A stretch of DNA of 64,000 nt from an uncultured Alphaproteobacteria bacterium (GTDB lineage Bacteria; Pseudomonadota; Alphaproteobacteria; CAAGCB01; CAG-977), in contig CALYBD010000005.1 of NCBI GenBank assembly GCA_944393745.1, forward strand, positions 11,165-75,164, given 5' to 3'. Positions 22,358 to 56,446 of the stretch are shown piece after piece; positions within the stretch are counted from its first letter, which is position 1, and each line of letters opens with the position of its first letter. Below the pieces are notes generated by a model, which ran no database searches, was not told the origin of the DNA, and was given only the letters and a program-made list of their open reading frames with translations. A program made the position numbers and the translations under genes.

Positions 22358-22390
22358 GAAGAGAGCTGTTAAAGGCTCTCTTTTTTGTTT
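22358..22390 (+). terminator. Rho-independent terminator after the carboxylesterase gene
   Basis: gaagagagc-tgttaaag-gctctctt followed by ttttttg. Confidence 0.7.
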
Positions 22391-22452
22391 TATTTCTCTG
22401 CTTTTTTATATTCGGAAAGGTATTTTTAACGAAATAGAGCCACTATTAAAGA

Positions 22453-23157
22453 ATGGAAAAAAGTATGTCAAATGCATCTGTTCGCCAAAATATCAAGAAA
22501 ACCGCGGCTTTGGGAATGCCTGCGGAAAACGGCGGGCGTTTGTCCATGTTTATGTGGTTATCGCGTTTTTTCAGTGTATTGTGCTTTTTTTTAGTAACTT
22601 CGCTTGCCGTTCTGGCATTGTCATTAATACATATTACCAAGGAATTGGAAGTAAATTCCGTTTTGGTAACAGCGCCGACGTATTCGGAAAATCTGGCTTA
22701 TTTCGAACCGCTGCACCCGGATATGCCCGCGATGGATATTCTGGCGGAAATGTTCGTGCGCCAGTATGTGACGGCCAGAAATAACGTTTGGCGTCATGCT
22801 CAGGAAATGCGCCGTATGTGGGGACGCGGCGGTATTGTTCGTTATATGTCGACACCTGCTGTATATGAAGAATTCGCCCGTCGGGAAGTCCCCAGATACT
22901 TTCCCGATCCGGCACAGCCGCCAACGGTTATGGTTGAAACGGATATTAAACGGATTATTAAAGAGGGATGGAACAGCTGGCAGATTTTCTTTGATACCCG
23001 TCGAATGGATACATCGATCAGTATGCCGGTTGTTGAACATTGGATTGCTACCATACAGTTTCGTTATTATTCCGATAACGCCATTATGTTTTTCCGTTTG
23101 CGCAATCCGTTGGGATTTACGGTAACGCAGTATCATTTGGCTCGTCAGAAAATATAA
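22453..23157 (+). CDS. virB8: T4SS VirB8-like protein, paralog 1 (bitopic, NTF2-like periplasmic domain)
   Basis: N-terminal TM helix (FFSVLCFFLVTSLAVLALSLI) and a C-terminal RLRNPLGFTVTQYHL matching the VirB8 NPLGF-V--Y signature. Collinear with paralog 2. Confidence 0.7.
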   Translation: MEKSMSNASVRQNIKKTAALGMPAENGGRLSMFMWLSRFFSVLCFFLVTSLAVLALSLIHITKELEVNSVLVTAPTYSENLAYFEPLHPDMPAMDILAEMFVRQYVTARNNVWRHAQEMRRMWGRGGIVRYMSTPAVYEEFARREVPRYFPDPAQPPTVMVETDIKRIIKEGWNSWQIFFDTRRMDTSISMPVVEHWIATIQFRYYSDNAIMFFRLRNPLGFTVTQYHLARQKI

Positions 23158-23180
23158 TTGTCAGGGAGAGGAGCAAAAAG

Positions 23181-23379
23181 AATGAAAAAAAGACTGTTCG
23201 GAAGAATATTTTTTATAACGGCTTTATGCGCTGTTGTAAGTGCCTGCGGCTCTATTTACGAAAAGGAACCTGTCGGGATCGGTCCCGATATTTCGGAATT
23301 AAAGCGTTCTCCGTGCGCTTGCATGCTTTTAAAGCTGCCGGCGGGCTTGCCCGACTGGATAACGACGGCTCAGGGATAA
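23181..23379 (+). CDS. virB7: Small lipoprotein, VirB7-like by size and position
   Basis: 66 aa; the lipobox, RBS and placement between two virB8 paralogs match the rvh-type cluster layout as I recall it. No strong sequence signature beyond that. Confidence 0.4.
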
Positions 23380-23393
23380 CAGGATAAAAAAAT

Positions 23394-24164
23394 ATGCCAA
23401 CTCCGGTAAAATCAAAACAACAGCTGACAGTGAAAACGCCTGAAAACAACCCGGTTCAAAAGGGTTCCGTTTCCGGCGGATCCAATTTGAAAAAAAATGT
23501 TGTTCGTCAACCCGAACGTGAAGAAATTTCAATTGATCAGCTGCGGGAACGGCGTTATTTGTGGACGGCGCGGGCTTTTGCAATCGTGTCGGCCGTGGCG
23601 TTATGCGTTAATTTGGTTTTGTTGTTGGCGATTATTCATATTATGCCGCTGAAACGCGTTGAACCGTTTTTGCTGACGTTTCAGAACAGAGACGAACAGG
23701 TTGTAAAAATTCGTCCTTTGGCAAAGGATATGGCGGCGGAAGATATTATTTCCGAAGCCATGATCAGACAGTATGTGTTGTTAAGAAATACGATGATTTC
23801 GGACGTTGACGAGATGTCTTTCCGTTGGGGGCAGGACGGTCCTTTGCGCTGGATGTCTTCGGCGCAGGTGTATAACCAGTTTGCCAAAACGGTCAAGGAT
23901 TGGCTGTCAAGAATTAAACTGGAAGGCTTAACGCGCGAAGTCCGAATTGAATCCGTTGTTCGAAATCAAAACATCTGGCTGGTTTATATTGTGACGCGCG
24001 ATATGCTGCCGGAAGCCGAAGAACCCGCTATTTCGCGTTGGCGTATCCGTTTGTCGGTCAAATACTTTGCCAAAGATCAAAAAGAAGTCAAATATATTGA
24101 CCGGTTAAAGAATCCTTTGGGGTTTGCCGTTGACGGATATGCGATTGAAAGTGCTAACGATTAA
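23394..24164 (+). CDS. virB8: T4SS VirB8-like protein, paralog 2
   Basis: TM helix (AFAIVSAVALCVNLVLLLAII) and C-terminal RLKNPLGFAVDGYAI. An EAMIRQYV region parallels paralog 1 (EMFVRQYV). Confidence 0.75.
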   Translation: MPTPVKSKQQLTVKTPENNPVQKGSVSGGSNLKKNVVRQPEREEISIDQLRERRYLWTARAFAIVSAVALCVNLVLLLAIIHIMPLKRVEPFLLTFQNRDEQVVKIRPLAKDMAAEDIISEAMIRQYVLLRNTMISDVDEMSFRWGQDGPLRWMSSAQVYNQFAKTVKDWLSRIKLEGLTREVRIESVVRNQNIWLVYIVTRDMLPEAEEPAISRWRIRLSVKYFAKDQKEVKYIDRLKNPLGFAVDGYAIESAND

Positions 24165-24176
24165 AGAAGGTGTCCC

Positions 24177-25706
24177 GTGAAAAGAAATTTGAAAATTCGC
24201 CTTTTTGCTTTTGTTTCGTTGTCTTTTTGTTTTTTGCCGCAGGTCGTTTCGGCACAACAGACGGCTGCGCGTGAATCCATGGATGCGGCGATTGAACAGT
24301 CAAACGGGCAGTATTCTGAAATCGATATGCCGTTTTGGTCTTTGGGAATGCAACAAAAAGCATGGAATAAACCGATGGAACATATGGGGGAAGGCCAGTC
24401 CAAGCCGGGATATTCCAGATATTTTTGGACGCCTGATCTGGTTTTGCCGCTGCGGATTCGGGAAGGTATGCATACGCTGATTAACTTTCCGTCATGGGAA
24501 TTGATTGAAAATGTTTTTCTGGGAAATGAAAGTGCTTTCGGGGCACAGAAGGTCGCGCAGAATGCGTTGATGGTTTTTGCGGCAAATGTTGACCTGGTCG
24601 GTATGGATACGAATATGATTGTTTTCGGCCGTTCCGGGAACAGATATGTTTTTTATTTAAGAAGCGAAACCTTTAATACGGACAGAATAACCAATTCCGT
24701 CGTGGATATCGTTGTCAATGATGCAAAGTTTGTTCCCGATGATTCCGGGCAAACGCCGTTTGCTTCCGGTGCAGTCGGATCCGGCGCCGTTTCTTTTGGC
24801 GGGTCAGGCGGTTTCGGCGGCGCTTTGCGCGGCGCAAAAAAGACAACAACAAAAAACGGAACGGAAGACTGGTTGGCCGATATTGAAGTCGACCCCGAAA
24901 AATTGCGTTTTGATATTGATGTGTTTGTGCCTAATCCGGCGGATATGGAAATTGCGCCCGAACGCGTCTGGCGTGATGAGATTTTCACGTATATTGATTT
25001 CGGTCCGAAGGCGTTGACAATGACGGAACGTCCGATTGTTAATCTTTTGTCTCAGGGATCCGAAGTGCCGATCGGCTTCAGGACGCGCGGCCCCAACGGC
25101 CGACTGATGGTTGTGGAAGGCATCGGCGATTTGGTTTTGCGTAACGGGAAACGGATTTTATGCCTGAAGATCAGAAAAGATCCTGCTTTTGGCACCGAAT
25201 GGGTAGAATACGAAAAATCCGTTCAGCCGGAATGGTCGCCGGGGCCGATGATAACAACGGGCGGCTATAATGCTCCGTCTGCCGGCGGTGTTGCAAACAA
25301 TGCCGATAATACAAATATGCAGGCGGCAAATGCCATGATGATGCAGGCAGGACCGAACGGTATATTATCGGCCAATCAGATTGCTCAGTTTTCACAGCAG
25401 GGACGGGACAGTTCCCGCATGATCCGCCGTTATCGCGACACGTCTATGGAAACGATTGCGGTTGAACTGGGATCAGACAGCGAAATTGCTCCGTTGGAAC
25501 AGAAATGGGACAATATTTCACGTAAAAACAGGGATTTGCTTAATGCGTATGAACCGTATTACTCTGTTGACGCAGTCGCGGAAGGCGAATCAAAAGATTT
25601 ATTCCGTCTGCGCATCGGTCCGGTCGACAGCATTGAAGCAGGGGATAAACTATGTAATCAATTAGGTCGCCGCGGGGTGACGTGTATGGTTGTGCGGACA
25701 CAATGA
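24177..25706 (+). CDS. virB9: T4SS VirB9-like outer-membrane core protein, extended with a Gly/Ser-rich linker and a C-terminal SPOR-like segment
   Basis: GTG start with RBS; signal peptide (FLPQVVSA). A VirB9 N-domain pattern (HTLINFPSWELIENVFLGNE...MVFAANVDLVGMDTNMIVFGRSGNRYVFYL) and a C-domain pattern (YIDFGPK...IVNLL...GRLMVVEGIGDLVLRNGKRILCLKI). The terminal LFRLRIGPVDSIEAGDKLCNQLGRRGVTCMVV resembles a SPOR second half. Confidence 0.7.
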   Translation: MKRNLKIRLFAFVSLSFCFLPQVVSAQQTAARESMDAAIEQSNGQYSEIDMPFWSLGMQQKAWNKPMEHMGEGQSKPGYSRYFWTPDLVLPLRIREGMHTLINFPSWELIENVFLGNESAFGAQKVAQNALMVFAANVDLVGMDTNMIVFGRSGNRYVFYLRSETFNTDRITNSVVDIVVNDAKFVPDDSGQTPFASGAVGSGAVSFGGSGGFGGALRGAKKTTTKNGTEDWLADIEVDPEKLRFDIDVFVPNPADMEIAPERVWRDEIFTYIDFGPKALTMTERPIVNLLSQGSEVPIGFRTRGPNGRLMVVEGIGDLVLRNGKRILCLKIRKDPAFGTEWVEYEKSVQPEWSPGPMITTGGYNAPSAGGVANNADNTNMQAANAMMMQAGPNGILSANQIAQFSQQGRDSSRMIRRYRDTSMETIAVELGSDSEIAPLEQKWDNISRKNRDLLNAYEPYYSVDAVAEGESKDLFRLRIGPVDSIEAGDKLCNQLGRRGVTCMVVRTQ

Positions 25707-28700
25707 ACGAAGATTTACTCAGCTCATCAGACAGATATTTAAAAAAGTCCAACAGAACACTGTTGATTGTCGGGATTATAGCCTTTTTGGCTTTTCTGAC
25801 AGGCGTCATCGTGCTGTTGAGCGGAGAAGAAGAACGTAAAAAAGATGCCGAAGTAACGATTGAAGGATCAGCGGAAAGCTCCAGCAGTATCGTTGGCGGC
25901 GACGCCGATACCTTTAGTCTGCCCGAAGAGGCAACAGCATCTACGGTGCGTTTGGTCGTTACCCCCGAAACCATGCGGTTTGATCAGGTCGTTCTGGGAA
26001 CAATGGCGGAAGGAACATTGACGTTATCGGCTTCTTCCGGGCGGATCAGCGTGACGGCAATCGAATTTGAAAATAAACAGGAAGACGGCTTTGTTCTGGA
26101 AAATAAATGTCGTAAAGATATTGTCCTGACCGGAGACGTCACCTGTAACGTTGTCGTGCGCTGGGAACCGAAAACGGCGCGGACGATTCAGTCTAATCTG
26201 GCTGTTCGCTGGACAGATGAAACGTTCGGCGGTATCGGGCGAAAAGTTATTGTTCCCATTTCGGCAATGGCAATTGATACCAGTATGTGCGGCGTTTGTG
26301 ATGAAGTGCCGGGCAGCAGCGGATCCATGCTGGATCAGCTGCGTCAAAAAGGTCGTGTCATTTTGGGGCCTGACGGGAAACCGATCGGATATGCCGACGA
26401 AAACGGTGTTGTTTACGGGTTGGACGGCAAAAGAATCGGAACTTTGCGCGAAGACGGAACCGTTGTTGATGATCAGGGCTATGTGATCGGTGTTGCGGAA
26501 GGCAGCAGAATAGCCATCGGTCCGAACGGGGAAATCCTGGGTACGATTCTGCCGGACGGCCGCGTAATAGATAAAGACGGCCGTTTGATCGGTTATGCTT
26601 TGCCGGACGGTACCATTGTTGATGAAAACGGAAACGTGATCGGATCTGCGATTAAAACGGGAATCGCGTATGATAAAAACGGCAATCCGATCGGGCGGAT
26701 TATGCCGGACGGGACGGTTGTCGACGATGAAGGCAACGTGATCGGCTATGTGAATCCGGACGGGACGATCGTTGATGCCAACGGTAATATTATCGGATCC
26801 GTTGCGCCGCAGGGAACGGTGGTTGACGCTTCGGGAAAACCGCTGGGAATTGTTATGCCGGACGGGACGGTCGTTGATGCTGACGGCAATATTATCGGCC
26901 GGACTTTACCAAACGGCTTTGTCGTTGACAGAGACGGCAATATTATCGGCCGTGTTGTCAAAGAAGGATTGGCAATCGGGCCCGGTTGCCGCATGATCGG
27001 CAGAATCAGTACGGACGGTTCCGTTATGTCTTCAAACAGACAGGTGGGGCGTTTAACGGCTTCCATGACCGTTGTCGATATGGCGGGCAATCCGATCGGC
27101 GGCTATGTTGAAGAAGGCGCTCTGATTGACTGGGCGGGGAAAATTATCGGTAAGGTCGATCAGGACGGACACCCCGTTTCTTTTAAAGGGGATCCTCTGG
27201 GGTGTTTAACGCCGTACGGGACGGTTGTTAACGATTCTGAAGAAATTATTGCCGCCGTTTTGCCGAAAGGAACGGTTGTCGGAACGCAGTGCGGCGTTGT
27301 CGGACGTGTTATGCCGGACGGCAGTGTTGTCGGCGATGGTCAGATTAAAGGACGCATTTTGCCGGATAAATCATTTTTATCGACAGAAGGGAAAATTGCG
27401 GGCGCTTTGGCGCGTCAGAATGTCGGTGTCGGACCGGGGTGTATGTCTTTGGGATATGTCAATCTTGACGGACAGGTTATGACAGCCAAGGGCGAACTGG
27501 TCGGCTGTCTGGCGGCGAACGGGGAAATCCTTGATAATCAAAAAGTCGTTTTGGGAAAAATATTGGATTCCGCCGTTGCCATAAATCCCGACGGGCGGGT
27601 TGTCGGCGTAATGGATCCGGTCGGCAGAATTCAGGATAAAGAAGGAAAAATTTTAGGCTGTGCGGATCCTGACGGGCTGGTTATTAACTCCAAAAACGAA
27701 TCGGTCGGCATAATGATGCCGACGGGCGGTGTTTTGGATCGTGACGGGCGTACAATCGGCTGGGTTATGCCGGACGGTTCTGTTTCAAACGGAAAAAACA
27801 GCACTGTCGGTAAAGTCATGCCGGACGGGACTGTCATTGACCTGACCGGACAAACGGTTGCTCGTGTCGCACCGTATAAAGGACTGGCTTTAAGAGGCAG
27901 CTGTGAACCGGTCGGCAACGTTTTGATTGACGGGCGTGTCGTTGATAATGAATTTAAACGGACGGCTTATATCCGCATGGACGACAGTCTGGCAAACGAA
28001 GCCGGTGATTTTGTCGGCCGTATCGCTTATGGCGCCAGAGGCATCAGTGCCAAAGACGTTTATTTGGGGGCAACGGGAAATGACGGCACGTTATATAATC
28101 CGGCCGGCGAAAAAATCGGTTGCTTGCGCCCGGATTCTTTATTCGTTGACGCAGAAAATAAATTTTTGGGCGCGGCTCTTCCCGAAGGAGTGGCTGTTAA
28201 TGATAAATCAGAACTGTATGCCCGAGGCGATTCGATCGCCAAAGCGCTGGATCTGAAAGGATCGGAATTTATCGGTTCGGTGACGCTCAGCGGCTTTATC
28301 AAAGAAGGCGACAGAATTTCCGGCGGAATTATTCCGGACAGAGCTGATGTTTTGGATATTAAAACCAGTGAAAAAATCGGTCGTTTATTGCCTGACGGTA
28401 CGGCGCTGGATTTGCTCAGCCGTTATTTGGGACGGTTAAGAATGCCCAGTGGGGAAATTGTCAATAAAGACGGCCGCGTCGTCGGTAAGATCTTTGTCGG
28501 TATGCGCCAAGTGATCGGCCCGAACGGAGAAATTCTGGGGGTGGTGATGCCGGACGGTACCGTGGTAGATGCTTCGGGTCGCGTTATCGGCAAAGCCGAT
28601 TTGAACGGTAAAGTCGTTGATAAAGACGGACGGGTCATCGGTGAAGTCATTCCGGTCGGCCAGCCGATTATCGGCCCTGACGGGAAAATTATCGGTTACG

Positions 28701-31700
28701 TCGGTGTCGACGGCCAGATTGTTGACAAAGACGGGAATCCCGTTTTAGGTCCCGACGGAAAGCCTTTGCGTTATCGTGCCGGCGGTTCTGTCGTTGAAGA
28801 CGGCGGAGAAGTGATCGGAAAAATCGGCGAGACTCTGGAACGTCTGGTTTATGATGAAAACGGCAATGTGATCGGCCGGGTATTGCCGGACGGAACGGTC
28901 GTTGATTTGGAAGGCAACGTGATCGGCACGATGCGTCCGGACGGCACGGTGGTGGATAAAGACGGCAATGTGATCGGCAGGGCAGGTCAGCCGGAACGTC
29001 TGGTTTATGATGAAAACGGTAATTTAATCGGTCGCGTATTGCCGGACGGAACGGTCGTCGATCTGAAAGGCAACGTGATCGGCCGTGTTCAGGACGACGG
29101 TACGGTGACGGCTTTGGGCTCTAAAGTGATCGGCTATACGGTCAAAGACGGTCTGGGACTGAACTTTAAAAATGAAATTATCGGTAAAATCAATTCTTCC
29201 GGTCAGCTTAAAGAACCCGGTTCGGATAAATCTTTGGGTTTTTTGCAGGCAGATGACACCATTACGGACGCAACGAATACCGTTATCGGCAAAGGGGTTG
29301 TTAATGCCGTTCCCATTGGTCTGCAATGTCAGATGCTGGGGACGATTGACGATAACGGGCAGGTTATTGATACAACGGGACGGCAGATCGGCCGGCTGAA
29401 TTATGATCGTTCTTTGGTTAATGCTTCGAATGCTCAGATCGGTTTGGCTTTGGGGCAGGAATCCATTATTAATGAACCGTGTGAGATTATCGGGCAGATT
29501 ACGACCGAAGGAAAAGCAGTCGATACCAAAGGTCAGGAAATCGGCTGTGTTGATTTTGAAGGGCTGGTAAAAGATAAAAACGGAAAACGACTGGGACGAA
29601 TCGTTCAGAAAGGACAGGTGCGCGGCCCCGATGATCAGATTATCGGCAGGATCGTTGCCAACGGTGAAGCGTTGGGATCTCAGGGGGACGTGTTAGGGTG
29701 TTTTTCGATTGACGGTGCCGTTTTGGATAAAAATAAAAAAATCCTGGGGGTTTCTGCCGACATGAAATATGCCATTGACGATCAGGGGAAAGTCATTGCT
29801 CATATTTTGGGCGGCACGTACGGCGTTAATCCTGCAGGCGGATCTTTTGTCGGTATGTTAAACGGGCAAAATCTGATCGGCGCAGAAAATCGTCAGTTGG
29901 GCGTACTTGTTCCTGCCGGCAGAAAAGTCATTGCAACGGACGGTAAGATTGTCGGAACCGTTCTGCCGCGCGGGCAGGTTCATAATGACCGCGGAGAAGA
30001 TGTCGGTTATGCCACTTCGTCCATGCGAGTTTTAACCGCAGATCGTAAATTTTTGGGACGCGTCGTCCCGATCGGCGAAGAATGTAAAGACGGTAAAAAC
30101 AACGTTGTCGGTACCGTCCACTTTGACGGCACGATTATTGACGAAAGAAAACAGGTCTTAGGACGTTTGCTGGCCAGCGGCCAGGCTTTGGACAATTCCG
30201 GTGCTCATTTATGTATGATTTCTTTGATCAGTACAAATGATGACGGGTCTTTGTTCCCGAAAGGGTTGATCGGAAAAATGGTTTACGGTCCGGACGGAAA
30301 GCCGTTGGGTGTTATCGGTGAAGACGGGTTTATTCGTGATGCAAACGGTAATATTATCGGACGTGTTTTGCCGGACGGCACGGTCGTCGATTTGGACGGC
30401 AACGTGATCGGCAAGGCTTATCCGAAAGGGGCTGTTTTCAGTCCTGACGGTAAATTTTTGGGTATTGTTGACGCAGACGGGTATTTGCGGGACGAAAACG
30501 GCAATATCATCGGCAGAATGTTGCCGGACGGTACCGTTGTCGATATGAACGGTAACATTATCGGCCGGGCTTTGCAGGAAGACGGTATTGTCGATTCAAA
30601 AGGGAATTTCCTGACAAAAGCAGGCGAAGACCGTTTGGTTTATGATGCCAACGGCAACGTGATCGGACGTGTTTTGCCGGACGGTACCGTTGTTGATTTA
30701 AAGGGGAACGTTATCGGCAGAATGTTGCCGGACGGTACGGTCGTTGATGCAAACGGCAATGTGATCGGTCGGGCGGGGCCGCCCGAGCGTTTGGCCTATG
30801 ATGCGAACGGCAATGTGATCGGTCGGGTATTGCCGGACGGTACCGTTGTTGATTTTAAAGGCAATGTAATCGGAAGAGTACAGCCCGACGGGACAATTGT
30901 TGATGCGACCGGGAAAGTTATCGGTCGGGCCGGGCCGCCTGTTGAGGCAAAAAATGTTCGTATTGCTGTCGGGCGTGACGGTAAATTTTTGGGTGTTGTC
31001 GGTGAAGACGGTCTTGTCCGTGACGAAAACGGCAATGTGATCGGCCGGGTATTGCCGGACGGAACGGTTGTTGACATGAACGGAAATGTAATCGGTTCTG
31101 TGATTGAAGGAGAACCGATGCGTGATGCAAACGGCAATATTATCGGTGTTATCATGCCGGACGGCCGCGTTGTTGATTTAGACGGCAATGTGATCGGTCG
31201 CATTAATGCAAACGGGGAAATCGTTGATGCGGACGGAACGGTTTTGGGCACATGGCGCGGCGGGAAACTGACGGCAATGAGCGATAAGCTGCAGAAAAAA
31301 CGTTTTGCGTTCGGCAAGGACGGCAAAAGAATCGGTATGATTATGCCGGACGGAACGGTTGTTGATGAAAACGGCAATATTATCGGTCGCGTTGATGAAG
31401 ACGGTAATGTGGTCGATTTAGACGGCAACATCATCGGGACGGTTGAAGAACCGTCTGCGGGAGGGCCGGCAGAAGAAGATAAAAAAGAAGGCAGTGTTTC
31501 CATTTTTGGTGCTTTTGATCCGGAAAATTACCGGTATCGCGGTAAATCTTTGGGATCCGGCGGCGGTACGGGAAAAGGGGAACGTTATGATCCCGCCCGC
31601 ATAAAACAGCTTCGGGCATTGCAATTGGCTTATCGTCGTCAGATCAGACCCGGACGGGGGATCGGCATTGCCTCGACCGAAGAAGATTTGCTGAAAAAGC

Positions 31701-32728
31701 AAAAACGCAGCAAAAGTTGGGCTGATTTGGGTGTGCTGAAGAATGTATCATCATATCGTGTCAATATGGATAATATGATTTTGGCGGATAAAGCCATACC
31801 GGCCGTTTTGGCGCGTTCCATTGATACGGAACAGGAAGATATTCCCATTTCCGCAATTGTTGAACGCAACATTTATTCGGAATCGGGACGTAAAATTATT
31901 ATTCCCGCCGGCAGCCGTGTTATTGGCGAACTCAGCGGTTCTTCGGCCAGTGAAGAAGTCGGAGCGGCTTCAAAAGTCGAAATTTCCTGGACACGCCTGA
32001 TTCGTCCGGACGGTGCGGCGTTCCAGTTTGACGAAGGATCTTCGGGTGATGCTTCCGGTCGTGCGGGCGTCGGCGCGTATATGGACCGACAGTTGATGAA
32101 GAAATACGGACTGCCGATGGTTCAGTCGACAATTACTTCTGCAATTTTGTATGCCATGGCAACGGATGACGCGGCCGAAGTCGGATCAGAAGGTGAAGTT
32201 GCCATGTCGGGTCGTCAGCAGGCGGCTGAAGATGCACGTACCAGATTTTCCGATACGATGCAGCAGATTTTTGATGATATCATCAGTGAAACGTCACAGT
32301 TAAAAACGCGCTTGTTTGTTCCTTCCGGTACACGAATTACGATTTTTGCAAACGCGGATTTATGGCTGCGCAGTGAAGCAGAAGATGAAGATGAAGCGTC
32401 TATCGGCAAGAAAGATGTTTTGATTGATCCAGATAAAGATGATGACAGAAATGTTGTTGATGATCCTTCTACGATTTCTTCGGGTACGACGACTCCGCAT
32501 GATCCGAACGCTCAAAATGTCCAAAATGATCCAAATAACTTGCAACAACAGCAGCAAATTTACTATAATAATTATGCTGGTCAGCAGGCGCCGCAACAGC
32601 AACAGCCTCCGCAGGGCAGATTGATCGACAGTAATAAGCAGCAACAACAACAGCAGCAGCCACTTCCGCCGCCGATTATACAGGAAAAGAAAGAAGAACC
32701 GGTTGATCCCGTTCCCGAACTTTTCTAA
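25703..32728 (+). CDS. virB10: Giant T4SS VirB10-like protein (about 2,340 aa): N-terminal TM anchor, a beta-rich domain, an internal repeat array of about 1,700 aa, a canonical VirB10/TrbI C-terminal domain, and a Q/P-rich tail
   Basis: Likely ATG at 25703 overlapping the virB9 stop (ATGA); the track starts at the GTG at 25682. TM helix LLIVGIIAFLAFLTGVIVLL. The C-terminal block IIPAGSRVIGELSG...KVEISWTRLIRPDGAAFQFDEGSSGDASGRAGVGAYMDRQLMKKYG matches the conserved VirB10/TrbI signature (IPAG-R-IGE...W-RLI-PDG....G.D..GRAG..G). Confidence 0.8.
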   Translation: MNEDLLSSSDRYLKKSNRTLLIVGIIAFLAFLTGVIVLLSGEEERKKDAEVTIEGSAESSSSIVGGDADTFSLPEEATASTVRLVVTPETMRFDQVVLGTMAEGTLTLSASSGRISVTAIEFENKQEDGFVLENKCRKDIVLTGDVTCNVVVRWEPKTARTIQSNLAVRWTDETFGGIGRKVIVPISAMAIDTSMCGVCDEVPGSSGSMLDQLRQKGRVILGPDGKPIGYADENGVVYGLDGKRIGTLREDGTVVDDQGYVIGVAEGSRIAIGPNGEILGTILPDGRVIDKDGRLIGYALPDGTIVDENGNVIGSAIKTGIAYDKNGNPIGRIMPDGTVVDDEGNVIGYVNPDGTIVDANGNIIGSVAPQGTVVDASGKPLGIVMPDGTVVDADGNIIGRTLPNGFVVDRDGNIIGRVVKEGLAIGPGCRMIGRISTDGSVMSSNRQVGRLTASMTVVDMAGNPIGGYVEEGALIDWAGKIIGKVDQDGHPVSFKGDPLGCLTPYGTVVNDSEEIIAAVLPKGTVVGTQCGVVGRVMPDGSVVGDGQIKGRILPDKSFLSTEGKIAGALARQNVGVGPGCMSLGYVNLDGQVMTAKGELVGCLAANGEILDNQKVVLGKILDSAVAINPDGRVVGVMDPVGRIQDKEGKILGCADPDGLVINSKNESVGIMMPTGGVLDRDGRTIGWVMPDGSVSNGKNSTVGKVMPDGTVIDLTGQTVARVAPYKGLALRGSCEPVGNVLIDGRVVDNEFKRTAYIRMDDSLANEAGDFVGRIAYGARGISAKDVYLGATGNDGTLYNPAGEKIGCLRPDSLFVDAENKFLGAALPEGVAVNDKSELYARGDSIAKALDLKGSEFIGSVTLSGFIKEGDRISGGIIPDRADVLDIKTSEKIGRLLPDGTALDLLSRYLGRLRMPSGEIVNKDGRVVGKIFVGMRQVIGPNGEILGVVMPDGTVVDASGRVIGKADLNGKVVDKDGRVIGEVIPVGQPIIGPDGKIIGYVGVDGQIVDKDGNPVLGPDGKPLRYRAGGSVVEDGGEVIGKIGETLERLVYDENGNVIGRVLPDGTVVDLEGNVIGTMRPDGTVVDKDGNVIGRAGQPERLVYDENGNLIGRVLPDGTVVDLKGNVIGRVQDDGTVTALGSKVIGYTVKDGLGLNFKNEIIGKINSSGQLKEPGSDKSLGFLQADDTITDATNTVIGKGVVNAVPIGLQCQMLGTIDDNGQVIDTTGRQIGRLNYDRSLVNASNAQIGLALGQESIINEPCEIIGQITTEGKAVDTKGQEIGCVDFEGLVKDKNGKRLGRIVQKGQVRGPDDQIIGRIVANGEALGSQGDVLGCFSIDGAVLDKNKKILGVSADMKYAIDDQGKVIAHILGGTYGVNPAGGSFVGMLNGQNLIGAENRQLGVLVPAGRKVIATDGKIVGTVLPRGQVHNDRGEDVGYATSSMRVLTADRKFLGRVVPIGEECKDGKNNVVGTVHFDGTIIDERKQVLGRLLASGQALDNSGAHLCMISLISTNDDGSLFPKGLIGKMVYGPDGKPLGVIGEDGFIRDANGNIIGRVLPDGTVVDLDGNVIGKAYPKGAVFSPDGKFLGIVDADGYLRDENGNIIGRMLPDGTVVDMNGNIIGRALQEDGIVDSKGNFLTKAGEDRLVYDANGNVIGRVLPDGTVVDLKGNVIGRMLPDGTVVDANGNVIGRAGPPERLAYDANGNVIGRVLPDGTVVDFKGNVIGRVQPDGTIVDATGKVIGRAGPPVEAKNVRIAVGRDGKFLGVVGEDGLVRDENGNVIGRVLPDGTVVDMNGNVIGSVIEGEPMRDANGNIIGVIMPDGRVVDLDGNVIGRINANGEIVDADGTVLGTWRGGKLTAMSDKLQKKRFAFGKDGKRIGMIMPDGTVVDENGNIIGRVDEDGNVVDLDGNIIGTVEEPSAGGPAEEDKKEGSVSIFGAFDPENYRYRGKSLGSGGGTGKGERYDPARIKQLRALQLAYRRQIRPGRGIGIASTEEDLLKKQKRSKSWADLGVLKNVSSYRVNMDNMILADKAIPAVLARSIDTEQEDIPISAIVERNIYSESGRKIIIPAGSRVIGELSGSSASEEVGAASKVEISWTRLIRPDGAAFQFDEGSSGDASGRAGVGAYMDRQLMKKYGLPMVQSTITSAILYAMATDDAAEVGSEGEVAMSGRQQAAEDARTRFSDTMQQIFDDIISETSQLKTRLFVPSGTRITIFANADLWLRSEAEDEDEASIGKKDVLIDPDKDDDRNVVDDPSTISSGTTTPHDPNAQNVQNDPNNLQQQQQIYYNNYAGQQAPQQQQPPQGRLIDSNKQQQQQQQPLPPPIIQEKKEEPVDPVPELF
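26350..31450 (+). repeat. In-frame tandem repeat array inside virB10: on the order of 100 units of about 17 aa (consensus LPDGTVVDxxGNVIGRx, two G-x-(V/I)-(V/I) half-units), with higher-order units of about 50 aa
   Basis: Visible directly in the translation (for example RVLPDGTVVDLKGNVIGRMLPDGTVVDANGNVIGRAGPPERLAYDANGNVIGR...) and at DNA level, with related copies at 28848-29085 and 30625-30950. The repeat generates many spurious antisense ORFs. Confidence 0.9.
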
Positions 32729-32746
32729 ATTGAAAAGGATATTGAA

Positions 32747-33724
32747 ATGAGTATGGATTCTTTTCAGGTTTTAAGATCGACATTGCGTTATCTGTCATAT
32801 TGGTATGAACAAGATAACGTCGAAGAAGTCGCGATTAACCGTCCGAACGAAATTTGGTTGCGTTTGCGCGGACGCAGGGCTCATCCTTGGGCATGCCAGC
32901 AGGACGCCAATCTGTCCAGAACGTATCTGACGGACATCATGCATATTATCGCCAACACGTTTGAACTGCCGTTTGATCCCGAACAGGGATCGCCGGCCGT
33001 GTATGCCACGCTGCCGGGCGATCACCGTTTTACGGGAATTGCGGGCAAAAACGTTATGTATGATAACGAGGATCTGACCGGCGGTATTGCCATGTGCGTT
33101 CGTGTTCATTCCGATGATGTGAAATTCGGATTGGGGGATTACGGCCTGAAATCGGGGGAACGCCTGCAAAAGCTTAATAAATTGAAAGAAGTTGAAAATC
33201 CGGAAGATCCGTATGAACGCCTGATTTTATCAATTAAGCGCGGCGACCATATTTTGGTTTCCGGGGCAACGGCAACCGGTAAAACGACATTTTTGAATAA
33301 CCTGCTGACCATTTTGGATTCGCATAAACGGGTAATTACGATTGAAGATACCCGCGAATTAATTGTGCCGCATCCCAACCATGTACATTTGGTGTTATCG
33401 CGTACGGAACAAACAAACACAATGACATATCCGAAATTGATTGACCTGGTTGTTCGTTTTACGCCGGATGCGATTATCGGCGGGGAAATTTCAACGGCTA
33501 ATGCCGGGGCGTTGTGGGAATTGATGGGATCCGGGCATGACAACTGCTTTGCGACAATTCACGCCGAAAATTCCGAAGCGGCCTATAAAGCGTTTACGGA
33601 TCGTATTCTGCATTGCTATCCGACGATTGACCGTGAAAAAACAATTGCCGAAATGCATGATAAGCTGCGGGTGGTTCAGATCAATCGTCAGGGAAATATC
33701 CGTGCCGTGACAGAAGTGACCTAA
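32747..33724 (+). CDS. virB11: T4SS ATPase VirB11 (traffic ATPase)
   Basis: Walker A GATATGKTT, Asp box IEDTRELIV, His box GSGHDNCFATIHA; 325 aa; directly downstream of virB10. Confidence 0.85.
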   Translation: MSMDSFQVLRSTLRYLSYWYEQDNVEEVAINRPNEIWLRLRGRRAHPWACQQDANLSRTYLTDIMHIIANTFELPFDPEQGSPAVYATLPGDHRFTGIAGKNVMYDNEDLTGGIAMCVRVHSDDVKFGLGDYGLKSGERLQKLNKLKEVENPEDPYERLILSIKRGDHILVSGATATGKTTFLNNLLTILDSHKRVITIEDTRELIVPHPNHVHLVLSRTEQTNTMTYPKLIDLVVRFTPDAIIGGEISTANAGALWELMGSGHDNCFATIHAENSEAAYKAFTDRILHCYPTIDREKTIAEMHDKLRVVQINRQGNIRAVTEVT

Positions 33725-55995: not shown

Positions 55996-56433
55996 TCAGG
56001 AAATTGAAGTGTCTGTCGACAAGGAACGCAGGGCTCTGATCCGGCGGCACAGCGATTGAATGATGTTTCTTTCCAGCGCCTTATGTTCATTCATCAGTCG
56101 GTACAAAGCCGGACCGGAAATTTTAAATAAAGTCGAATCTTCCAAAGCGGTAACGGTTATATCGGCCTGCACCGGATCCAAAGCGGCCAATTCGCCAAAG
56201 ACTTCCAACGCATTGCATTCCCGAAGGGTTTGGCCGTTTTTATGAAAGCGAACTTGTCCTTGCAAAATAATATACATATCATTCCATTCACTGCCTTCTT
56301 TGATAATATCCGTACCGATCATGGCGGCTGTTTCTTCGCTGGCAGCGATAATATCGGACAATGCGGCTTCGGGAATGCCGGCAAACAGCGGAATATTTTT
56401 TAAGATCAGAACTTTTTCAAGCGTTAAGCGCAT
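55996..56433 (-). CDS. Cyclic-nucleotide-binding-domain protein with no DNA-binding domain
   Basis: An LKNIPLFAGIPEAAL start and an FGELAAL phosphate-binding cassette-like motif. Start chosen at MRLTLEK; the ORF track extends to 56499. Confidence 0.65.
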   Translation of the reverse strand: MRLTLEKVLILKNIPLFAGIPEAALSDIIAASEETAAMIGTDIIKEGSEWNDMYIILQGQVRFHKNGQTLRECNALEVFGELAALDPVQADITVTALEDSTLFKISGPALYRLMNEHKALERNIIQSLCRRIRALRSLSTDTSIS

Positions 56434-56446
56434 AATTGACAACTCC

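What the first reader, a model, noticed from the sequence alone, without database searches (positions are those of the whole stretch)
22453..33724. Partial P-type type IV secretion cluster whose gene order (B8-B7-B8-B9-B10-B11) matches the Rickettsiales rvh layout as I recall it
Six consecutive co-directional genes encode two VirB8 paralogs flanking a tiny lipoprotein, then VirB9, VirB10 and VirB11, mostly with overlapping or tightly spaced start and stop codons. Duplicated virB8 around a virB7 is the layout I associate with the Rickettsiales vir homolog (rvh) system. In that system the inner-membrane and ATPase components (virB2/3/4/6, virD4) sit elsewhere on the chromosome, which would explain their absence here. 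The cluster lies between a carboxylesterase gene and trkH, and is preceded by an intrinsic terminator. This implies a secretion or conjugation-derived machine in what otherwise looks like a reduced, host-associated genome.
Basis: partly seen in the sequence, partly recalled or inferred. Interest (0 to 1): 0.8.

Follow-up and report, generated by a model that had tools for sequence, protein, structure and literature searches.

The report
Type IV secretion with giant VirB10
This is a real six-gene piece of a type IV secretion machine in an uncultured, flagellated gut alphaproteobacterium (not a Rickettsia relative), and its channel subunit VirB10 is six times the normal size because about 100 small beta-hairpin repeats sit in its periplasmic linker, an architecture I could not find described.

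Summary
Window 22453-33724 (+) encodes VirB8a, a 65-aa lipoprotein in the VirB7 position, VirB8b, VirB9, VirB10 and VirB11. The genes are tightly packed, follow a terminator, and lie between a carboxylesterase gene and trkH.

VirB10 is 2,341 aa. A canonical TrbI barrel sits at the C-terminus, behind about 1,700 aa of 17-residue beta-hairpin repeats (Pfam beta-flower). VirB9 also carries a C-terminal SPOR peptidoglycan-binding domain.

The cluster, with giant VirB10 (2,015-2,666 aa), is conserved at a chromosomal locus in more than 30 species-level gut, rumen and faecal Alphaproteobacteria MAGs. A sister clade splits VirB10 into a membrane-anchored half and a Sec-exported half.

Relatives carry four tandem VirB6-like genes, VirB4 and VirD4 elsewhere or nearby. 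None of these was found in this window.

The rvh-like order is real but probably convergent. The nearest ordinary relative is a contiguous P-type operon with a single VirB8 in a 68% GC contig (VirB11 64% identical).

I read this as the outer-membrane-core and ATPase islet of a domesticated, expanded T4SS. It is a new variant of a known kind. Its substrate and target are unknown.

The parts
22358..22393 (+). Intrinsic terminator-like hairpin plus T-run after the carboxylesterase gene. It marks the upstream boundary of the cluster.
   Evidence: 10-bp stem, 6-nt loop, TTTGTTTTAT tail; sequence read.
22453..23157 (+). virB8a: the divergent VirB8 paralogue, 234 aa, a bitopic inner-membrane protein.
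   Evidence: Pfam VirB8 2.7e-14. It is 29% identical to VirB8b, E 2e-28. A profile search of the PDB gives Brucella VirB8 (2bhm) 5.9e-9 as best hit. Orthologues are present in the related loci.
23182..23379 (+). virB7-position lipoprotein, 65 aa. It has a signal peptide with lipobox VSAC and a conserved CGSIY..EP.GI...LK.SPCAC motif.
   Evidence: It has no Pfam or NCBIfam hit. It is conserved in 19 loci, 54% identical to the 58-aa gene at the VirB7 position of L048, and 40% identical to the L049 61-aa gene. It lacks the P[ILV]NK motif.
23394..24164 (+). virB8b: the orthologue of the single VirB8 of ordinary operons, 256 aa.
   Evidence: Pfam VirB8 8e-22. It is 43% identical to L048 VirB8. A profile search of the PDB gives 4mei VirB8 4e-7.
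24177..25706 (+). virB9, 509 aa: signal peptide, CagX/VirB9 domain (aa 81-330), low-complexity linker, C-terminal SPOR domain.
   Evidence: Pfam CagX 1.2e-13. There are 1,142 homologues, and the best 120 are 470-615 aa.
25563..25697 (+). SPOR (peptidoglycan-binding) domain at the C-terminus of VirB9, aa 463-507.
   Evidence: Pfam SPOR 3.8e-5, 24.4 bits against a cut-off of 21. PF05036 is precomputed on about 15 of the 120 orthologue clusters listed.
25703..32728 (+). virB10, 2,341 aa from ATG 25703 (the ORF is open from GTG 25682).
   Evidence: Orthologues are 2,015-2,666 aa.
25757..25822 (+). VirB10 N-terminal transmembrane helix, aa about 19-40, after an 18-aa cytoplasmic tail.
   Evidence: Sequence. 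The AF2 helix spanning residues 3-46 (pLDDT 81 in block 21-30; lower at both ends). The N-terminus is conserved across orthologues.
25952..26230 (+). Probable Ig-like (ASH / choice-of-anchor-D type) domain, aa about 84-176, with invariant Cys136 and Cys148.
   Evidence: The evidence is weak. NCBIfam choice_anch_D gives 0.0015. It is 27% identical to the same region of L048 VirB10, E 5e-5. Telmatospirillum VirB10 has Pfam ASH here, but the pairwise comparison is not significant. The AF2 single-sequence model has low confidence here.
26339..31438 (+). Beta-hairpin (beta-flower) repeat array, aa about 213-1912: about 100 units of 17 aa (51 nt), consensus LPDGTVVDxxGNVIGRV.
   Evidence: Pfam Bflower_2 2.9e-138 (18 stretches), DUF3659 2.6e-52, Bflower 2e-42. 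The DNA period is 51 nt and copies are 60-80% identical. 36 of 76 motif spacings are exactly 17. AF2 models regular hairpins at pLDDT 70-90. There are 14 conserved Cys, lost only in pairs.
28805..29092 (+). Length hot spot 1 of the array, aa about 1035-1130. The VirB10 split of the sister clade also maps here.
   Evidence: Indels of 17, 35, 52-53 and 104-108 aa between orthologues. The junction of the L025 gene pair aligns to aa about 1100-1116.
30245..30892 (+). Length hot spot 2 of the array, aa about 1515-1730, made of regular 51-52-aa (three-hairpin) modules.
   Evidence: Indels of 49-52, 73 and 109 aa. There is a 153-nt repeat family, and a 266-nt pair 28838-29103 / 30629-30894 at 78%.
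31778..32368 (+). Canonical VirB10/TrbI C-terminal barrel with a two-helix antenna.
   Evidence: Pfam TrbI 1.8e-30. PDB sequence hits are ComB10 1.2e-17, TrwE 3e-9 and CagY 3e-7. AF2 models the barrel plus helices at model residues 490-513 and 531-559. Foldseek matches TrwE, CagY, Xanthomonas VirB10 and TraF at E 1e-10 to 3e-14, TM about 0.61-0.70 on the target.
32369..32725 (+). Low-complexity Gln/Pro-rich C-terminal tail of VirB10 ending in PELF. It is the least conserved part.
   Evidence: Sequence. AF2 pLDDT is below 50. Identity to L001 is 68%, against 87% for the barrel. The consensus ends in PxLF.
32747..33724 (+). virB11: hexameric-ATPase family protein, 325 aa, Walker A GATATGKTT.
   Evidence: Pfam T2SSE 6.4e-21. 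NCBIfam VirB11 TIGR02788 1.4e-42, 146 bits against a cut-off of 250. It is 94-99% identical in 24 congeneric loci.

Best explanation
The region is the outer-membrane-core and ATPase islet (VirB8a, VirB7-like lipoprotein, VirB8b, VirB9, VirB10, VirB11) of a chromosomally fixed, vertically inherited, VirB-type (P-type) type IV secretion system. The host is an uncultured, flagellated gut alphaproteobacterium.

Shown:
- The gene identities.
- Conservation of the cluster and its chromosomal position in more than 30 species.
- A canonical VirB10 barrel with antenna, and a VirB11 with an intact Walker A motif.
- A 1,700-aa array of 17-residue beta-hairpins between the N-terminal membrane anchor and the barrel of VirB10.
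- A SPOR domain on VirB9.

Inferred:
1. The other components are encoded elsewhere in this genome, as in relatives: VirB4, VirD4, four VirB6-like proteins with an HTH regulator, and possibly a small two-TM protein in the VirB2/B3 position.
2. The hairpin array lies in the periplasm. Its topology places it between the inner-membrane helix and the outer-membrane barrel, and it has invariant cysteines that are lost only in pairs 72-73 residues apart, as expected for disulfides. It folds into about 20 beta-flower-like modules per chain.
3. Multiplied by the roughly 14 VirB10 copies of a core complex, the array would build a multi-megadalton periplasmic cage or ring. This would be an 'expanded' core complex analogous to Cag or Dot/Icm, made by enlarging one subunit rather than adding new ones. 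VirB9-SPOR would tether it to peptidoglycan.
4. The machine exports protein substrates to neighbouring cells rather than mediating conjugation. No relaxase or mobile-element features are present, and the locus is fixed.
5. The rvh-like features (VirB8 duplicated around VirB7, multiple VirB6, scattering) arose independently from an ordinary alphaproteobacterial virB operon.
For: - Gene identities.
- Conservation and synteny: the same order is seen in L001-L034, with VirB11 94-99% identical in 24 loci and 65-77% in deeper clades. The flanks are housekeeping genes.
- A broad giant-VirB10 clade: at least 25 clusters at 50% identity are 1,400-2,400 aa long. Lengths fall to 500-630 aa only below about 37% identity.
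- Purifying selection on the array: identity in the repeats equals that in the barrel (87/87% against L001, 57/62% against L010). Indels occur only at two hot spots and are mostly near whole-hairpin sizes (17, 35, 52, 104-109 aa), with some exceptions.
- Periplasmic location: there are 18 Cys, nearly all invariant. C530/C602 are lost together in L011 and L021, and C1260/C1333 are lost together in L008.
- Structure: hairpins are modelled at pLDDT 70-90, and the barrel has two antenna helices.
- Missing parts exist in the family: VirB6 x4 with HTH_3; VirB4 and VirD4 in L049.
- Descent from an ordinary operon: L048 has VirB11 64% identical, VirB9 45%, VirB8 43% (to B8b) and 30% (to B8a), VirB7 54%. 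Its regulator is 42-44% identical to the regulator of the VirB6 islets. Its VirB4 C-terminus is 70% identical to that of L049.
Against: - VirB4, VirD4, VirB6 and a pilin were not found in this window or within about 10 kb of virB11 in 24 congeneric loci. Completeness of the machine in this genome is therefore an extrapolation from relatives in other genera.
- Nothing here shows expression, assembly, stoichiometry, or where the repeats end up.
- The beta-flower fold has no known function (PMC10584680).
- All six proteins score far below the NCBIfam equivalog cut-offs, so they are very divergent.
- The sister-clade split of VirB10 shows that a covalent inner-to-outer-membrane bridge is not essential. 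This weakens any model that relies on VirB10 as an energy-transducing strut.
- The convergence argument lacks a phylogeny that includes Rickettsiales sequences.
Confidence: 0.72

Rival explanations
1. It is a true member, by common descent, of the Rickettsiales vir homolog (rvh) system. Either the lineage is an unrecognised relative of Rickettsiales, or it acquired rvh laterally.
For: - The order B8-B7-B8-B9-B10-B11 equals the inner part of Rickettsia islet C.
- The genes are scattered into islets.
- Relatives carry four tandem VirB6-like genes.
- The stated rvh hallmarks include VirB8 duplication and multicopy VirB6 (PMC11077975).
- The best curated hit for the VirB10 barrel is ComB10. Gillespie 2009 noted ComB affinities of rvh components.
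Against: - The closest ordinary relative (L048, 67.6% GC) has a single VirB8 that is orthologous to VirB8b, and a contiguous canonical operon. Its VirB11 is 64% identical, so the duplication post-dates that split.
- No second virB9 lies next to the cluster, and virD4 does not follow virB11.
- The VirB7-position protein lacks P[ILV]NK.
- L049 has a weak VirB5-like gene after virB4.
- Profile searches of the PDB with either VirB8 returned Brucella, Bartonella and plasmid VirB8s. From memory, a Rickettsia typhi VirB8 structure (4O3V) exists; I saw no chain I could attribute to it even at E<=10, but the listing gives no organisms.
- The host MAGs are deposited as Rhodospirillaceae or unclassified Alphaproteobacteria, and the lineage is flagellated.
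Confidence: 0.1
2. The repeat region of VirB10 is a surface-exposed or host-facing variable module, like the CagY repeats. On this reading it would be used for adhesion, immune modulation or tuning of secretion by repeat recombination, rather than as a periplasmic scaffold.
For: - The repeats occupy the same place in the protein as the CagY repeats, between the N-terminal anchor and the VirB10 domain (PMC9371333).
- Protein length varies from 2,015 to 2,666 aa between species, through hairpin-sized indels at two hot spots.
- The habitat is the animal gut.
Against: - The array is as conserved as the barrel domain, and most of it shows one-to-one orthology.
- The DNA copies are only 60-80% identical, so frequent homologous recombination is unlikely.
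- The repeats are beta-hairpins, not the alpha-helical modules of CagY.
- The topology places the array between an inner-membrane helix and an outer-membrane barrel.
- The paired conserved cysteines fit a folded periplasmic structure.
Confidence: 0.12
3. It is a decaying remnant of a conjugative element or ICE. On this reading it is a non-functional partial virB operon left in the chromosome.
For: - Only half of a T4SS is present in 64 kb.
- The nearest ordinary relative (L048) sits next to a TraI-like helicase and VirD4, as on a mobile element.
Against: - All six ORFs are intact, including a 7-kb gene, in more than 30 species. Sequence is conserved throughout and the chromosomal neighbours are the same.
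- There are no integrase, relaxase or repeat boundaries, and no GC discontinuity.
- Partner islets are conserved in relatives.
Confidence: 0.04
4. It is a DNA-uptake or DNA-release (competence-type, ComB-like) T4SS rather than an effector translocator.
For: - The best-scoring curated model and the best PDB sequence hit for the barrel are ComB10 (NF038092 at 114 bits; 2bhv at 1.2e-17).
- No effector genes were recognised near the cluster.
Against: - From my own knowledge (not tested here), ComB systems lack VirB11 and VirD4. Here virB11 is part of the cluster, and virD4 is present in the related L049 and L048 loci.
- A VirB6-like protein with M23 peptidase and VgrG3-like C domains in relatives hints at cell-wall attack or remodelling.
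- All scores are far below the equivalog cut-offs, so 'ComB10-like' is not an assignment.
Confidence: 0.08

Closest known systems
Canonical alphaproteobacterial VirB/VirD4 (P-type, 'minimized') T4SS, represented here by locus L048 and by the solved R388 Trw, pKM101 and Xanthomonas core complexes
   Same: - It has homologous VirB7-position lipoprotein, VirB8, VirB9, VirB10 barrel with antenna, and VirB11.
- The gene order B7-B8-B9-B10-B11 is the same.
- The divergent HTH_3 regulator is orthologous.
- Identities to L048 are VirB11 64%, VirB9 45% and VirB8b 43%.
   Different: - There is an extra VirB8 paralogue upstream of VirB7.
- VirB10 is about 4-6 times longer, because of the beta-hairpin array.
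- VirB9 carries a SPOR domain.
- The operon is broken up: B2-B6, B4 and D4 are not in the cluster.
- VirB6 is multiplied to four copies in relatives.
- No relaxase is present, and the chromosomal position is fixed.
Rickettsiales vir homolog (rvh) T4SS
   Same: - VirB8 is duplicated around VirB7, followed by B9-B10-B11.
- Components are scattered into islets.
- Relatives carry several tandem VirB6-like genes, some with long extensions.
   Different: - The host is not Rickettsiales.
- There is no adjacent virB9a and no virD4 after virB11.
- VirB10 is giant, whereas as I recall RvhB10 is of ordinary size.
- The VirB7-position protein has no P[ILV]NK motif.
- The nearest relatives are ordinary single-VirB8 operons, so the likeness is probably convergent.
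Helicobacter pylori CagY (VirB10 homologue of the expanded Cag T4SS)
   Same: - It is a roughly 2,000-aa VirB10 homologue with a long repeat region N-terminal to the VirB10 domain.
- It belongs to a system with enlarged core subunits.
- The barrel matches structurally (6x6k/6odi, E about 1e-12; PMC9371333).
   Different: - CagY repeats are alpha-helical modules; these are 17-residue beta-hairpins (beta-flower).
- CagY repeat DNA recombines, but here the copies are 60-80% identical and positionally conserved.
- No CagM or Cag3-type accessory genes are seen.
Legionella Dot/Icm core complex (DotG = VirB10 homologue; DotK with a peptidoglycan-binding domain, from my own knowledge)
   Same: - The VirB10-like subunit is enlarged.
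- The core complex is expected to contact peptidoglycan.
- The barrel is weakly similar in structure (9ngw, 7muq).
   Different: - It is a type IVB system with many extra subunits.
- As I recall, the DotG repeats are pentapeptide repeats.
- Here the peptidoglycan contact would come from a SPOR domain fused to VirB9.
Beta-flower proteins (Pfam PF21784/PF21785, clan CL0395; Durairaj et al. 2023, PMC10584680)
   Same: - The Pfam matches are strong (Bflower_2 2.9e-138).
- The [DNEQ]xxG hairpin-tip motif is present.
- Short antiparallel hairpins are predicted.
   Different: - Described beta-flowers are small proteins of about 100 residues, single-domain or lipoprotein, with no known function.
- Here about 100 hairpins are strung inside a secretion-system subunit and stapled by conserved cysteine pairs.

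Membership tests
VirB-type (P-type) type IV secretion system | VirB8-family bitopic inner-membrane protein | tested here: met
   There are two copies, with Pfam VirB8 at 2.7e-14 and 8e-22. PDB profile hits are to VirB8 and TrwG.
VirB-type (P-type) type IV secretion system | VirB9/CagX periplasmic and outer-membrane core subunit | tested here: met
   Pfam CagX 1.2e-13; NCBIfam VirB9 4.5e-11, below the equivalog cut-off.
VirB-type (P-type) type IV secretion system | VirB10/TrbI C-terminal barrel with a helical antenna and an N-terminal inner-membrane anchor | tested here: met
   Pfam TrbI 1.8e-30. The AF2 model has the barrel plus two long helices. Foldseek matches TrwE, CagY, TraF and Xanthomonas VirB10 at E 1e-10 to 3e-14. 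The N-terminal TM helix is at aa 19-40.
VirB-type (P-type) type IV secretion system | VirB11 ATPase | tested here: met
   TIGR02788 VirB11 1.4e-42 is the best hit, ahead of TrbB. The Walker A motif is present.
VirB-type (P-type) type IV secretion system | VirB4 ATPase, which I recall is universal in T4SSs | tested here: inconclusive
   It is absent from the 64-kb window and from about 10 kb either side of virB11 in 24 congeneric loci. An 807-aa gene with the CagE_TrbE_VirB domain lies upstream of the orthologous cluster in L049. The rest of this genome could not be searched.
VirB-type (P-type) type IV secretion system | VirB6/TrbL polytopic channel protein and VirD4 coupling protein | tested here: inconclusive
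   Neither is in the window. Four tandem VirB6-like genes occur in related genomes. VirD4 is present in L049 and L048.
VirB-type (P-type) type IV secretion system | VirB7 lipoprotein that binds VirB9 (P[ILV]NK motif) | tested here: inconclusive
   A lipoprotein of the right size and position is present, homologous to the gene at the same position in L048. The P[ILV]NK motif is absent and no family model matches.
Rickettsiales vir homolog (rvh) T4SS | VirB8 duplication, with the two copies flanking virB7 | tested here: met
   The Rickettsia layout is given.
Rickettsiales vir homolog (rvh) T4SS | Multicopy VirB6 | tested here: inconclusive
   Four tandem paralogues are present in related genera (L037, L039, L044, L046, L060). 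They were not located in this genome.
Rickettsiales vir homolog (rvh) T4SS | VirB9 and VirB4 duplication | tested here: inconclusive
   There is no second virB9 in the window or in the flanks of the related loci. The VirB9 homologue search listed only orthologues among its best 120. The VirB4 copy number could not be examined.
Rickettsiales vir homolog (rvh) T4SS | No VirB5 analogue | tested here: inconclusive
   The L049 227-aa gene directly after virB4 resembles the L048 gene at the VirB5 position only weakly (phmmer 3.4e-6 in a tiny database).
Rickettsiales vir homolog (rvh) T4SS | virD4 directly downstream of virB11 (islet C) | tested here: not met
   trkH follows virB11 here. Housekeeping or unknown genes follow it in the relatives.
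Rickettsiales vir homolog (rvh) T4SS | Carried by Rickettsiales and sharing descent with their system ('bona fide rickettsial signature', PMC11077975) | tested here: not met
   The hosts are gut Alphaproteobacteria MAGs with flagellar genes. The nearest relative outside the clade is a single-VirB8 contiguous operon at 67.6% GC. No phylogeny that includes Rickettsiales could be built.
CagY-type expanded VirB10 | Long repeat region between the N-terminal anchor and the VirB10 domain | tested here: met
CagY-type expanded VirB10 | Alpha-helical repeat modules encoded by recombining, near-identical DNA repeats | tested here: not met
   The repeats are beta-hairpins. The DNA copies are 60-80% identical. 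The array is positionally conserved between species.
Beta-flower fold (Pfam CL0395: PF21784/PF21785) | Match to the family models above the gathering score, hairpin repeats, and the [DNEQ]xxG tip motif | tested here: met
   Bflower_2 scores 452.6 bits against a cut-off of 38, and Bflower 144.6 bits against 25. The motif and the 17-aa period are seen. Closure of the hairpins into flowers was not checked on coordinates.
SPOR peptidoglycan-binding domain | Match to PF05036 above the gathering score | tested here: met
   It scores 24.4 bits against a cut-off of 21, but covers only profile positions 34-76 of 76. The domain is also recorded on several orthologues.

The most novel reading that the evidence does not exclude
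Mammalian-gut Alphaproteobacteria (many species, human to ruminant) carry a previously undescribed class of expanded, chromosomally domesticated T4SS.

- The VirB10 strut has been turned into a 250-kDa chain of about 20 disulfide-stapled beta-flower modules.
- In a sister clade this chain is naturally split into separate inner-membrane and outer-membrane proteins.
- VirB9 is anchored to peptidoglycan by a SPOR domain.
- The system has independently converged on the 'Rickettsiales-only' rvh hallmarks: VirB8 duplication around VirB7, VirB6 proliferation, and scattered islets.

If this is right, it gives the first functional context for the orphan beta-flower fold. It also provides a natural experiment on whether VirB10 must span both membranes as one polypeptide, and a lead to the unknown lifestyle of these uncultured gut bacteria (killing neighbours, or interacting with gut eukaryotes).
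Probability: 0.55. Interest if true: 0.78.

Novelty: new variant of a known kind. Interest (0 to 1): 0.66.

Why it matters
**T4SS architecture.** Known 'expanded' systems (Cag, Dot/Icm, F) grow by adding subunits or alpha-helical and pentapeptide repeats. Here one canonical subunit is enlarged six-fold with a fold described only in 2023 and still without a function. The array is under the same constraint as the pore domain. The natural split of VirB10 in a sister clade bears on the long-standing idea that VirB10 transduces energy across the envelope as a single membrane-spanning chain.

**Evolution.** The rvh hallmarks are used as an order-level signature of Rickettsiales and as a filter to recognise rickettsial MAGs (PMC11077975). 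An independent origin of the same layout in gut Alphaproteobacteria would show the layout is a recurrent solution. It would also warn against using it alone for taxonomy.

**Gut microbiology.** The lineage is widespread in humans, ruminants and horses and is uncultured. A conserved secretion machine, with a VirB6-like protein carrying peptidoglycan-hydrolase domains in relatives, is a concrete handle on how these bacteria interact with neighbours.

Tried and rejected
1. **Other T4SS genes in the window.** I ran Pfam on about 45 ORFs and tblastn with VirB4, VirB6, VirD4, the regulator and accessory proteins from relatives. No further T4SS genes turned up. The window is otherwise housekeeping.

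2. **VirB4 or VirD4 in the flanks of 36 related loci.** The large unmatched ORFs proved to be FlgK, FlgE, GyrB, AddAB-like, PNPase and similar.

3. **Linking a VirB6 islet to the window's own genus.** I compared NCBI record names, GC content and tblastx against the flanks. No physical or assembly link was found.

4. The one genome-contig scan went on VirB11. The one metagenome-contig scan was lost to a tool error. A targeted search for virB4 in complete MAGs was therefore impossible.

5. **The third homologue search.** It used VirB9 and was meant to reveal a second VirB9 paralogue. It listed only orthologues among its best 120.

6. **Affinity to Rickettsia VirB8.** Single-sequence and profile searches of the PDB gave only weak hits to Brucella, Bartonella and plasmid VirB8. 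This does not support an rvh link, but it is not a phylogeny.

7. **The Ig-like N-domain of VirB10.** Pairwise BLAST to Telmatospirillum VirB10 was not significant, and the AF2 single-sequence model had low confidence there. I kept the domain only as 'probable'.

8. **Short VirB10 hits.** The 433-721-aa hits looked like normal-sized relatives. At least one (P0008/L042) is a contig-end fragment of a giant gene. Full-length representatives are 1,400-2,400 aa.

9. **Literature.** Searches for RF32 or CAG-239 with secretion systems, and for VirB10 with DUF3659 or beta-flower, found nothing relevant.

10. **Other.** The afdb50 fold library was unavailable and the taxonomy look-up of the CAG name failed. 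'RF32' as the GTDB order is only my recollection and is not used as evidence.

Full report
**Observation**

Window 22453-33724 carries six co-directional genes on the + strand. Pfam assigns them as follows:

| Gene | Coordinates | Pfam result |
|---|---|---|
| virB8a | 22453-23157 | VirB8, 2.7e-14 |
| virB8b | 23394-24164 | VirB8, 8e-22 |
| virB9 | 24177-25706 | CagX, 1.2e-13 |
| virB10 | ORF 25682-32728 | TrbI, 1.8e-30 |
| virB11 | 32747-33724 | T2SSE, 6e-21 |

- A 65-aa lipoprotein lies between the two virB8 genes (ATG 23182-23379; MKKRLFGRIFFITALCAVVSAC).
- NCBIfam gives VirB11 (TIGR02788, 1.4e-42) as the best model for the ATPase, ahead of TrbB.
- The spacers are 24, 14 and 12 nt, then a 4-nt ATGA overlap, then 18 nt.
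- A hairpin with a T-run at 22358-22393 follows the upstream carboxylesterase gene. trkH follows virB11.

- The 'virB10' ORF is 2,348 codons (2,341 from the likely ATG at 25703). The TrbI domain occupies only ORF residues 2033-2229.
- Residues about 213-1912 give very strong matches to the beta-flower families: PF21785 at 2.9e-138 in 18 stretches, PF21784 at 2e-42, and DUF3659 at 2.6e-52.
- The unit is a 17-residue hairpin with consensus LPDGTVVDxxGNVIGRV, and 36 of 76 motif spacings are exactly 17. It is encoded with a 51-nt period, and the DNA copies are only 60-80% identical.
- VirB9 is also unusual. After its CagX domain and a low-complexity linker it ends in a SPOR domain (24.4 bits against a cut-off of 21).

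**Whose genome it is**

A scan of one genome per GTDB species with VirB11 returned 36 loci.

- 24 have VirB11 94-99% identical to the window. Deeper clades are at about 76% and 65-67%.
- All come from uncultured Alphaproteobacteria MAGs. The records are titled Alphaproteobacteria bacterium, uncultured Rhodospirillaceae or Rhodospirillales, or 'Acetobacter sp. CAG:977'. One record (L014) is titled Limosilactobacillus gorillae.
- The record titles name human-gut collections, rumen samples from sheep, roe deer and water buffalo, and horse faeces.
- The rest of the window is housekeeping: uvrB, a BatA-D-like operon, pfk, a DEAD helicase, trkH, flaF, hom, recJ, an Opp-type ABC transporter, ftsY, ffh and rpsP. 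Relatives have flagellar hook and rod genes next to the cluster.
- GC content shows no break across the cluster.

This is a chromosomal, vertically inherited locus in a motile gut lineage. It is not Rickettsiales and not an obvious mobile element.

**Conservation of the oddities**

- Every locus that reaches far enough upstream has B8a-B7-B8b-B9 and a giant VirB10 of 2,015-2,666 aa.
- An exhaustive search of 1.84 billion representative proteins with the C-terminal 415 aa found at least 25 clusters at 50% identity that are 1,400-2,400 aa long. Lengths drop to 500-630 aa only below about 37% identity.
- The short hits of the first search include at least one contig-end fragment.
- In pairwise alignments the repeat array is as conserved as the pore domain (87% and 87% against L001; 57% and 62% against L010).
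- Length differences are confined to two hot spots, aa about 1035-1130 and about 1515-1730. Indel sizes are 17, 35, 52 and 104-109 aa, which are whole numbers of hairpins.
- The protein has 18 cysteines, nearly all invariant. Where they are missing, they are missing in pairs 72-73 residues apart: C530 with C602 in L011 and L021, and C1260 with C1333 in L008. This is what disulfide partners in an oxidising compartment would show.

**Structure**

- An AlphaFold model of the last 702 residues, built on a 33-sequence alignment, shows regular hairpins at pLDDT 70-90, then a disordered linker, then a barrel with two long helices.
- Foldseek matches the barrel to the VirB10 C-terminal domains of solved core complexes: TrwE, CagY, Xanthomonas VirB10, TraF, ComB10 and DotG. 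E-values run from 3e-14 to 3e-4, and TM on the target is about 0.54-0.70.
- The N-terminal model shows a long N-terminal helix spanning the membrane-anchor segment, and again hairpins from residue about 219.
- A probable Ig-like domain at aa about 84-176 rests on weak evidence only.

**Missing components**

- Nothing else of a T4SS is in the 64 kb.
- In the sister clade (L025-L030, L039-41, L046-47) an islet lies about 6-7 kb downstream of virB11. It consists of a small two-TM ORF (66-69 aa) and four tandem VirB6-like genes, next to a divergent HTH_3 regulator.
- In other genera the same islet sits elsewhere in the chromosome (L037, L044, L060).
- In L049, whose VirB11 is 79% identical and whose VirB10 is 2,406 aa, an 807-aa VirB4 gene lies upstream of B8a. 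It is separated from B8a by five signal-peptide proteins, and virD4 lies 8.6 kb downstream.
- The family therefore has VirB4, VirD4 and multiple VirB6. That this particular genome has them is an inference.

**Relation to rvh**

- Gillespie et al. give Rickettsia islet C as virB9a-virB8a-virB7-virB8b-virB9b-virB10-virB11-virD4, and islet A as virB3-virB4a-virB6a-e. The stated rvh hallmarks are duplication of RvhB8, RvhB9 and RvhB4, multicopy RvhB6 and no VirB5, and the system is called a bona fide rickettsial signature. The window matches the inner part of islet C, and the family matches the multicopy VirB6.
- The nearest system with an ordinary VirB10 (L048, 67.6% GC) is a contiguous operon: HTH_3 | TrbC-B3-B4-278 aa-547 aa-B7-B8-B9-B10(579 aa)-B11-SLT-D4, followed by a TraI-like helicase. 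It has a single VirB8.
- L048's proteins compare with the window's as follows: VirB11 64% identical, VirB9 45%, VirB7 54%, VirB8 43% to VirB8b but only 30% to VirB8a.
- Its VirB4 C-terminus is 70% identical to L049's. Its regulator is 42-44% identical to the regulator of the VirB6 islets.
- The simplest history is that an ordinary alphaproteobacterial virB operon was domesticated in this gut lineage. It was then broken up, with VirB8 duplicated, VirB6 multiplied and VirB10 inflated.
- Other differences from rvh: virD4 does not follow virB11, no second virB9 is adjacent, the VirB7-position protein lacks P[ILV]NK, and L049 has a weak VirB5-like gene.
- PDB searches with either VirB8 (as single sequences and as profiles) found Brucella, Bartonella and plasmid VirB8s and nothing I could attribute to Rickettsia.

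I therefore read the rvh likeness as convergent. A phylogeny with rickettsial sequences is still needed to settle it.

**A natural split**

- In six independent MAGs of the sister clade, VirB10 is two genes.
  - The first encodes the N-terminal tail, the TM helix, the Ig-like region and 900-1,700 aa of hairpins.
  - The second starts with a typical Sec signal peptide (for example MNKKTLLKLFVTFQLSIFSFSVHAADV). It carries more hairpins and the TrbI barrel.
- The junction maps near aa 1100 of the window protein, inside length hot spot 1.
- The unsplit form is found in the window clade, in L049 and in the most divergent locus L032, so the split looks derived.
- It implies that the two halves can work without a covalent link, presumably by hairpin-array contacts.

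**Mechanism proposed**

Shown:
- The gene products and their domain order.

Inferred:
- VirB8a/b, VirB9, VirB10 and the lipoprotein form the envelope-spanning scaffold, and VirB11 is one of its ATPases.
- The hairpin array lies in the periplasm, folded into about 20 flower-like modules per chain.
- With the 14-fold O-layer typical of minimized systems, that would add several megadaltons around the stalk. The result would be an expanded core complex made from one inflated subunit.
- VirB9-SPOR would fasten the complex to peptidoglycan.
- The substrate is probably protein, delivered on contact. The family has VirD4, there is no relaxase, and the locus is fixed.
- The target is open. The only hint is a VirB6-like protein with M23 peptidase and VgrG3-like C-terminal domains in relatives. 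That fits either cell-wall remodelling for assembly or attack on other bacteria.

**Comparison and novelty**

- CagY is the closest analogue in plan: a roughly 1,900-aa VirB10 homologue with internal repeats. Its repeats are alpha-helical and recombine.
- DotG is another enlarged VirB10.
- The beta-flower fold was described in 2023 from small proteins of unknown function.
- I found no paper linking it to T4SS, and none on secretion systems of this gut lineage.
- I rate this a new variant of a known kind.

**Verdict**

- The more interesting finding is the giant, sometimes split, beta-flower VirB10 and the SPOR-tagged VirB9.

Noticed in passing
L025:2212-9983, L026, L027, L028:1345-9984, L030, L033:1-9961: In the sister clade the giant VirB10 is split into two genes. 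One encodes an inner-membrane-anchored half with repeats. The other encodes a Sec-signal-peptide half with repeats plus the TrbI barrel. The split is consistent in six MAGs, so it is not an assembly artefact.
   Followed up: partly
L037:8136-15535; L039:7393-16661; L046:8183-17191; L025:17262-20962: There is a conserved islet made of a 66-69-aa two-TM ORF plus four tandem VirB6-like genes (424-1,014 aa), next to a divergent 322-aa HTH_3 regulator. That regulator is 42-44% identical to the regulator of an ordinary virB operon (L048).
   Followed up: partly
L044:7735-11598, L045:7488-11351, L060:7784-11647: The third VirB6-like gene (1,287 aa) carries Peptidase_M23 and T6SS VgrG3-like C-terminal domains. 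It is a possible cell-wall hydrolase fused to a channel subunit.
   Followed up: no
L049:1-9969 and 25810-27221: A relative with an orthologous giant-VirB10 cluster keeps virB4 upstream. Five signal-peptide proteins (227-526 aa, no family hits) separate virB4 from B8a. Two of them (the 455- and 414-aa proteins) share a 75%-identical 88-aa segment. virD4 lies on the opposite strand 8.6 kb downstream.
   Followed up: partly
L039:986-6163; L046:596-6875; L044:15449-17722: Conserved genes of unknown function travel with the system in relatives. They are a 694-817-aa acidic protein, proteins of about 229-252 aa, 420-423 aa (the 446-aa L025 orthologue has a lipoprotein-type signal peptide) and about 225-234 aa, plus an extra 431-aa gene in L046. 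None has a homologue in the window.
   Followed up: no
L043:10001-15356 (Telmatospirillum siberiense PIUM01000001.1): A free-living Rhodospirillales genome has a virB10 (ASH/Ig-like + TrbI, 518 aa)-virB11-virD4-prepilin peptidase islet with no virB8 or virB9 upstream. Scattered virB islets therefore also occur in other non-rickettsial Alphaproteobacteria.
   Followed up: no
window 25703-32728 (VirB10 residues 429-1504): Invariant cysteines are spaced 72-73 residues apart (429/501, 530/602, 580/653, 734/807, 1209/1282, 1260/1333). They are lost only as pairs in orthologues, which is covariation consistent with disulfide staples.
   Followed up: yes
window 2558-5787 (-): Two tandem paralogous polytopic membrane proteins (557 and 531 aa, 8-10 predicted TM segments) lie in a low-GC stretch (about 40% against 48%). 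Their only family hints are sub-threshold (GT87, FTR1).
   Followed up: partly
window 33765-35252 versus L042:2152-3598: trkH lies between virB11 and flaF in the window. In a related contig virB11 is followed directly by flaF, so the downstream junction of the cluster is not fixed.
   Followed up: no
window 55996-59269 (-): A 940-aa HEAT-repeat protein overlaps the start of a small cyclic-nucleotide-binding-domain protein. This is an unusual pair for a small bacterial genome.
   Followed up: no
window 47533-48513 (+): This gene has a strong match to the 'mitochondrial fission ELM1' family (PF06258, 5e-81). It sits beside genes for a sugar-phosphate isomerase-like protein and an inositol monophosphatase.
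   Followed up: no
L014 (CAVCSV010000010.1): A contig carrying this alphaproteobacterial cluster is deposited under the name Limosilactobacillus gorillae. This is probably a binning or labelling error in the public record.
   Followed up: no
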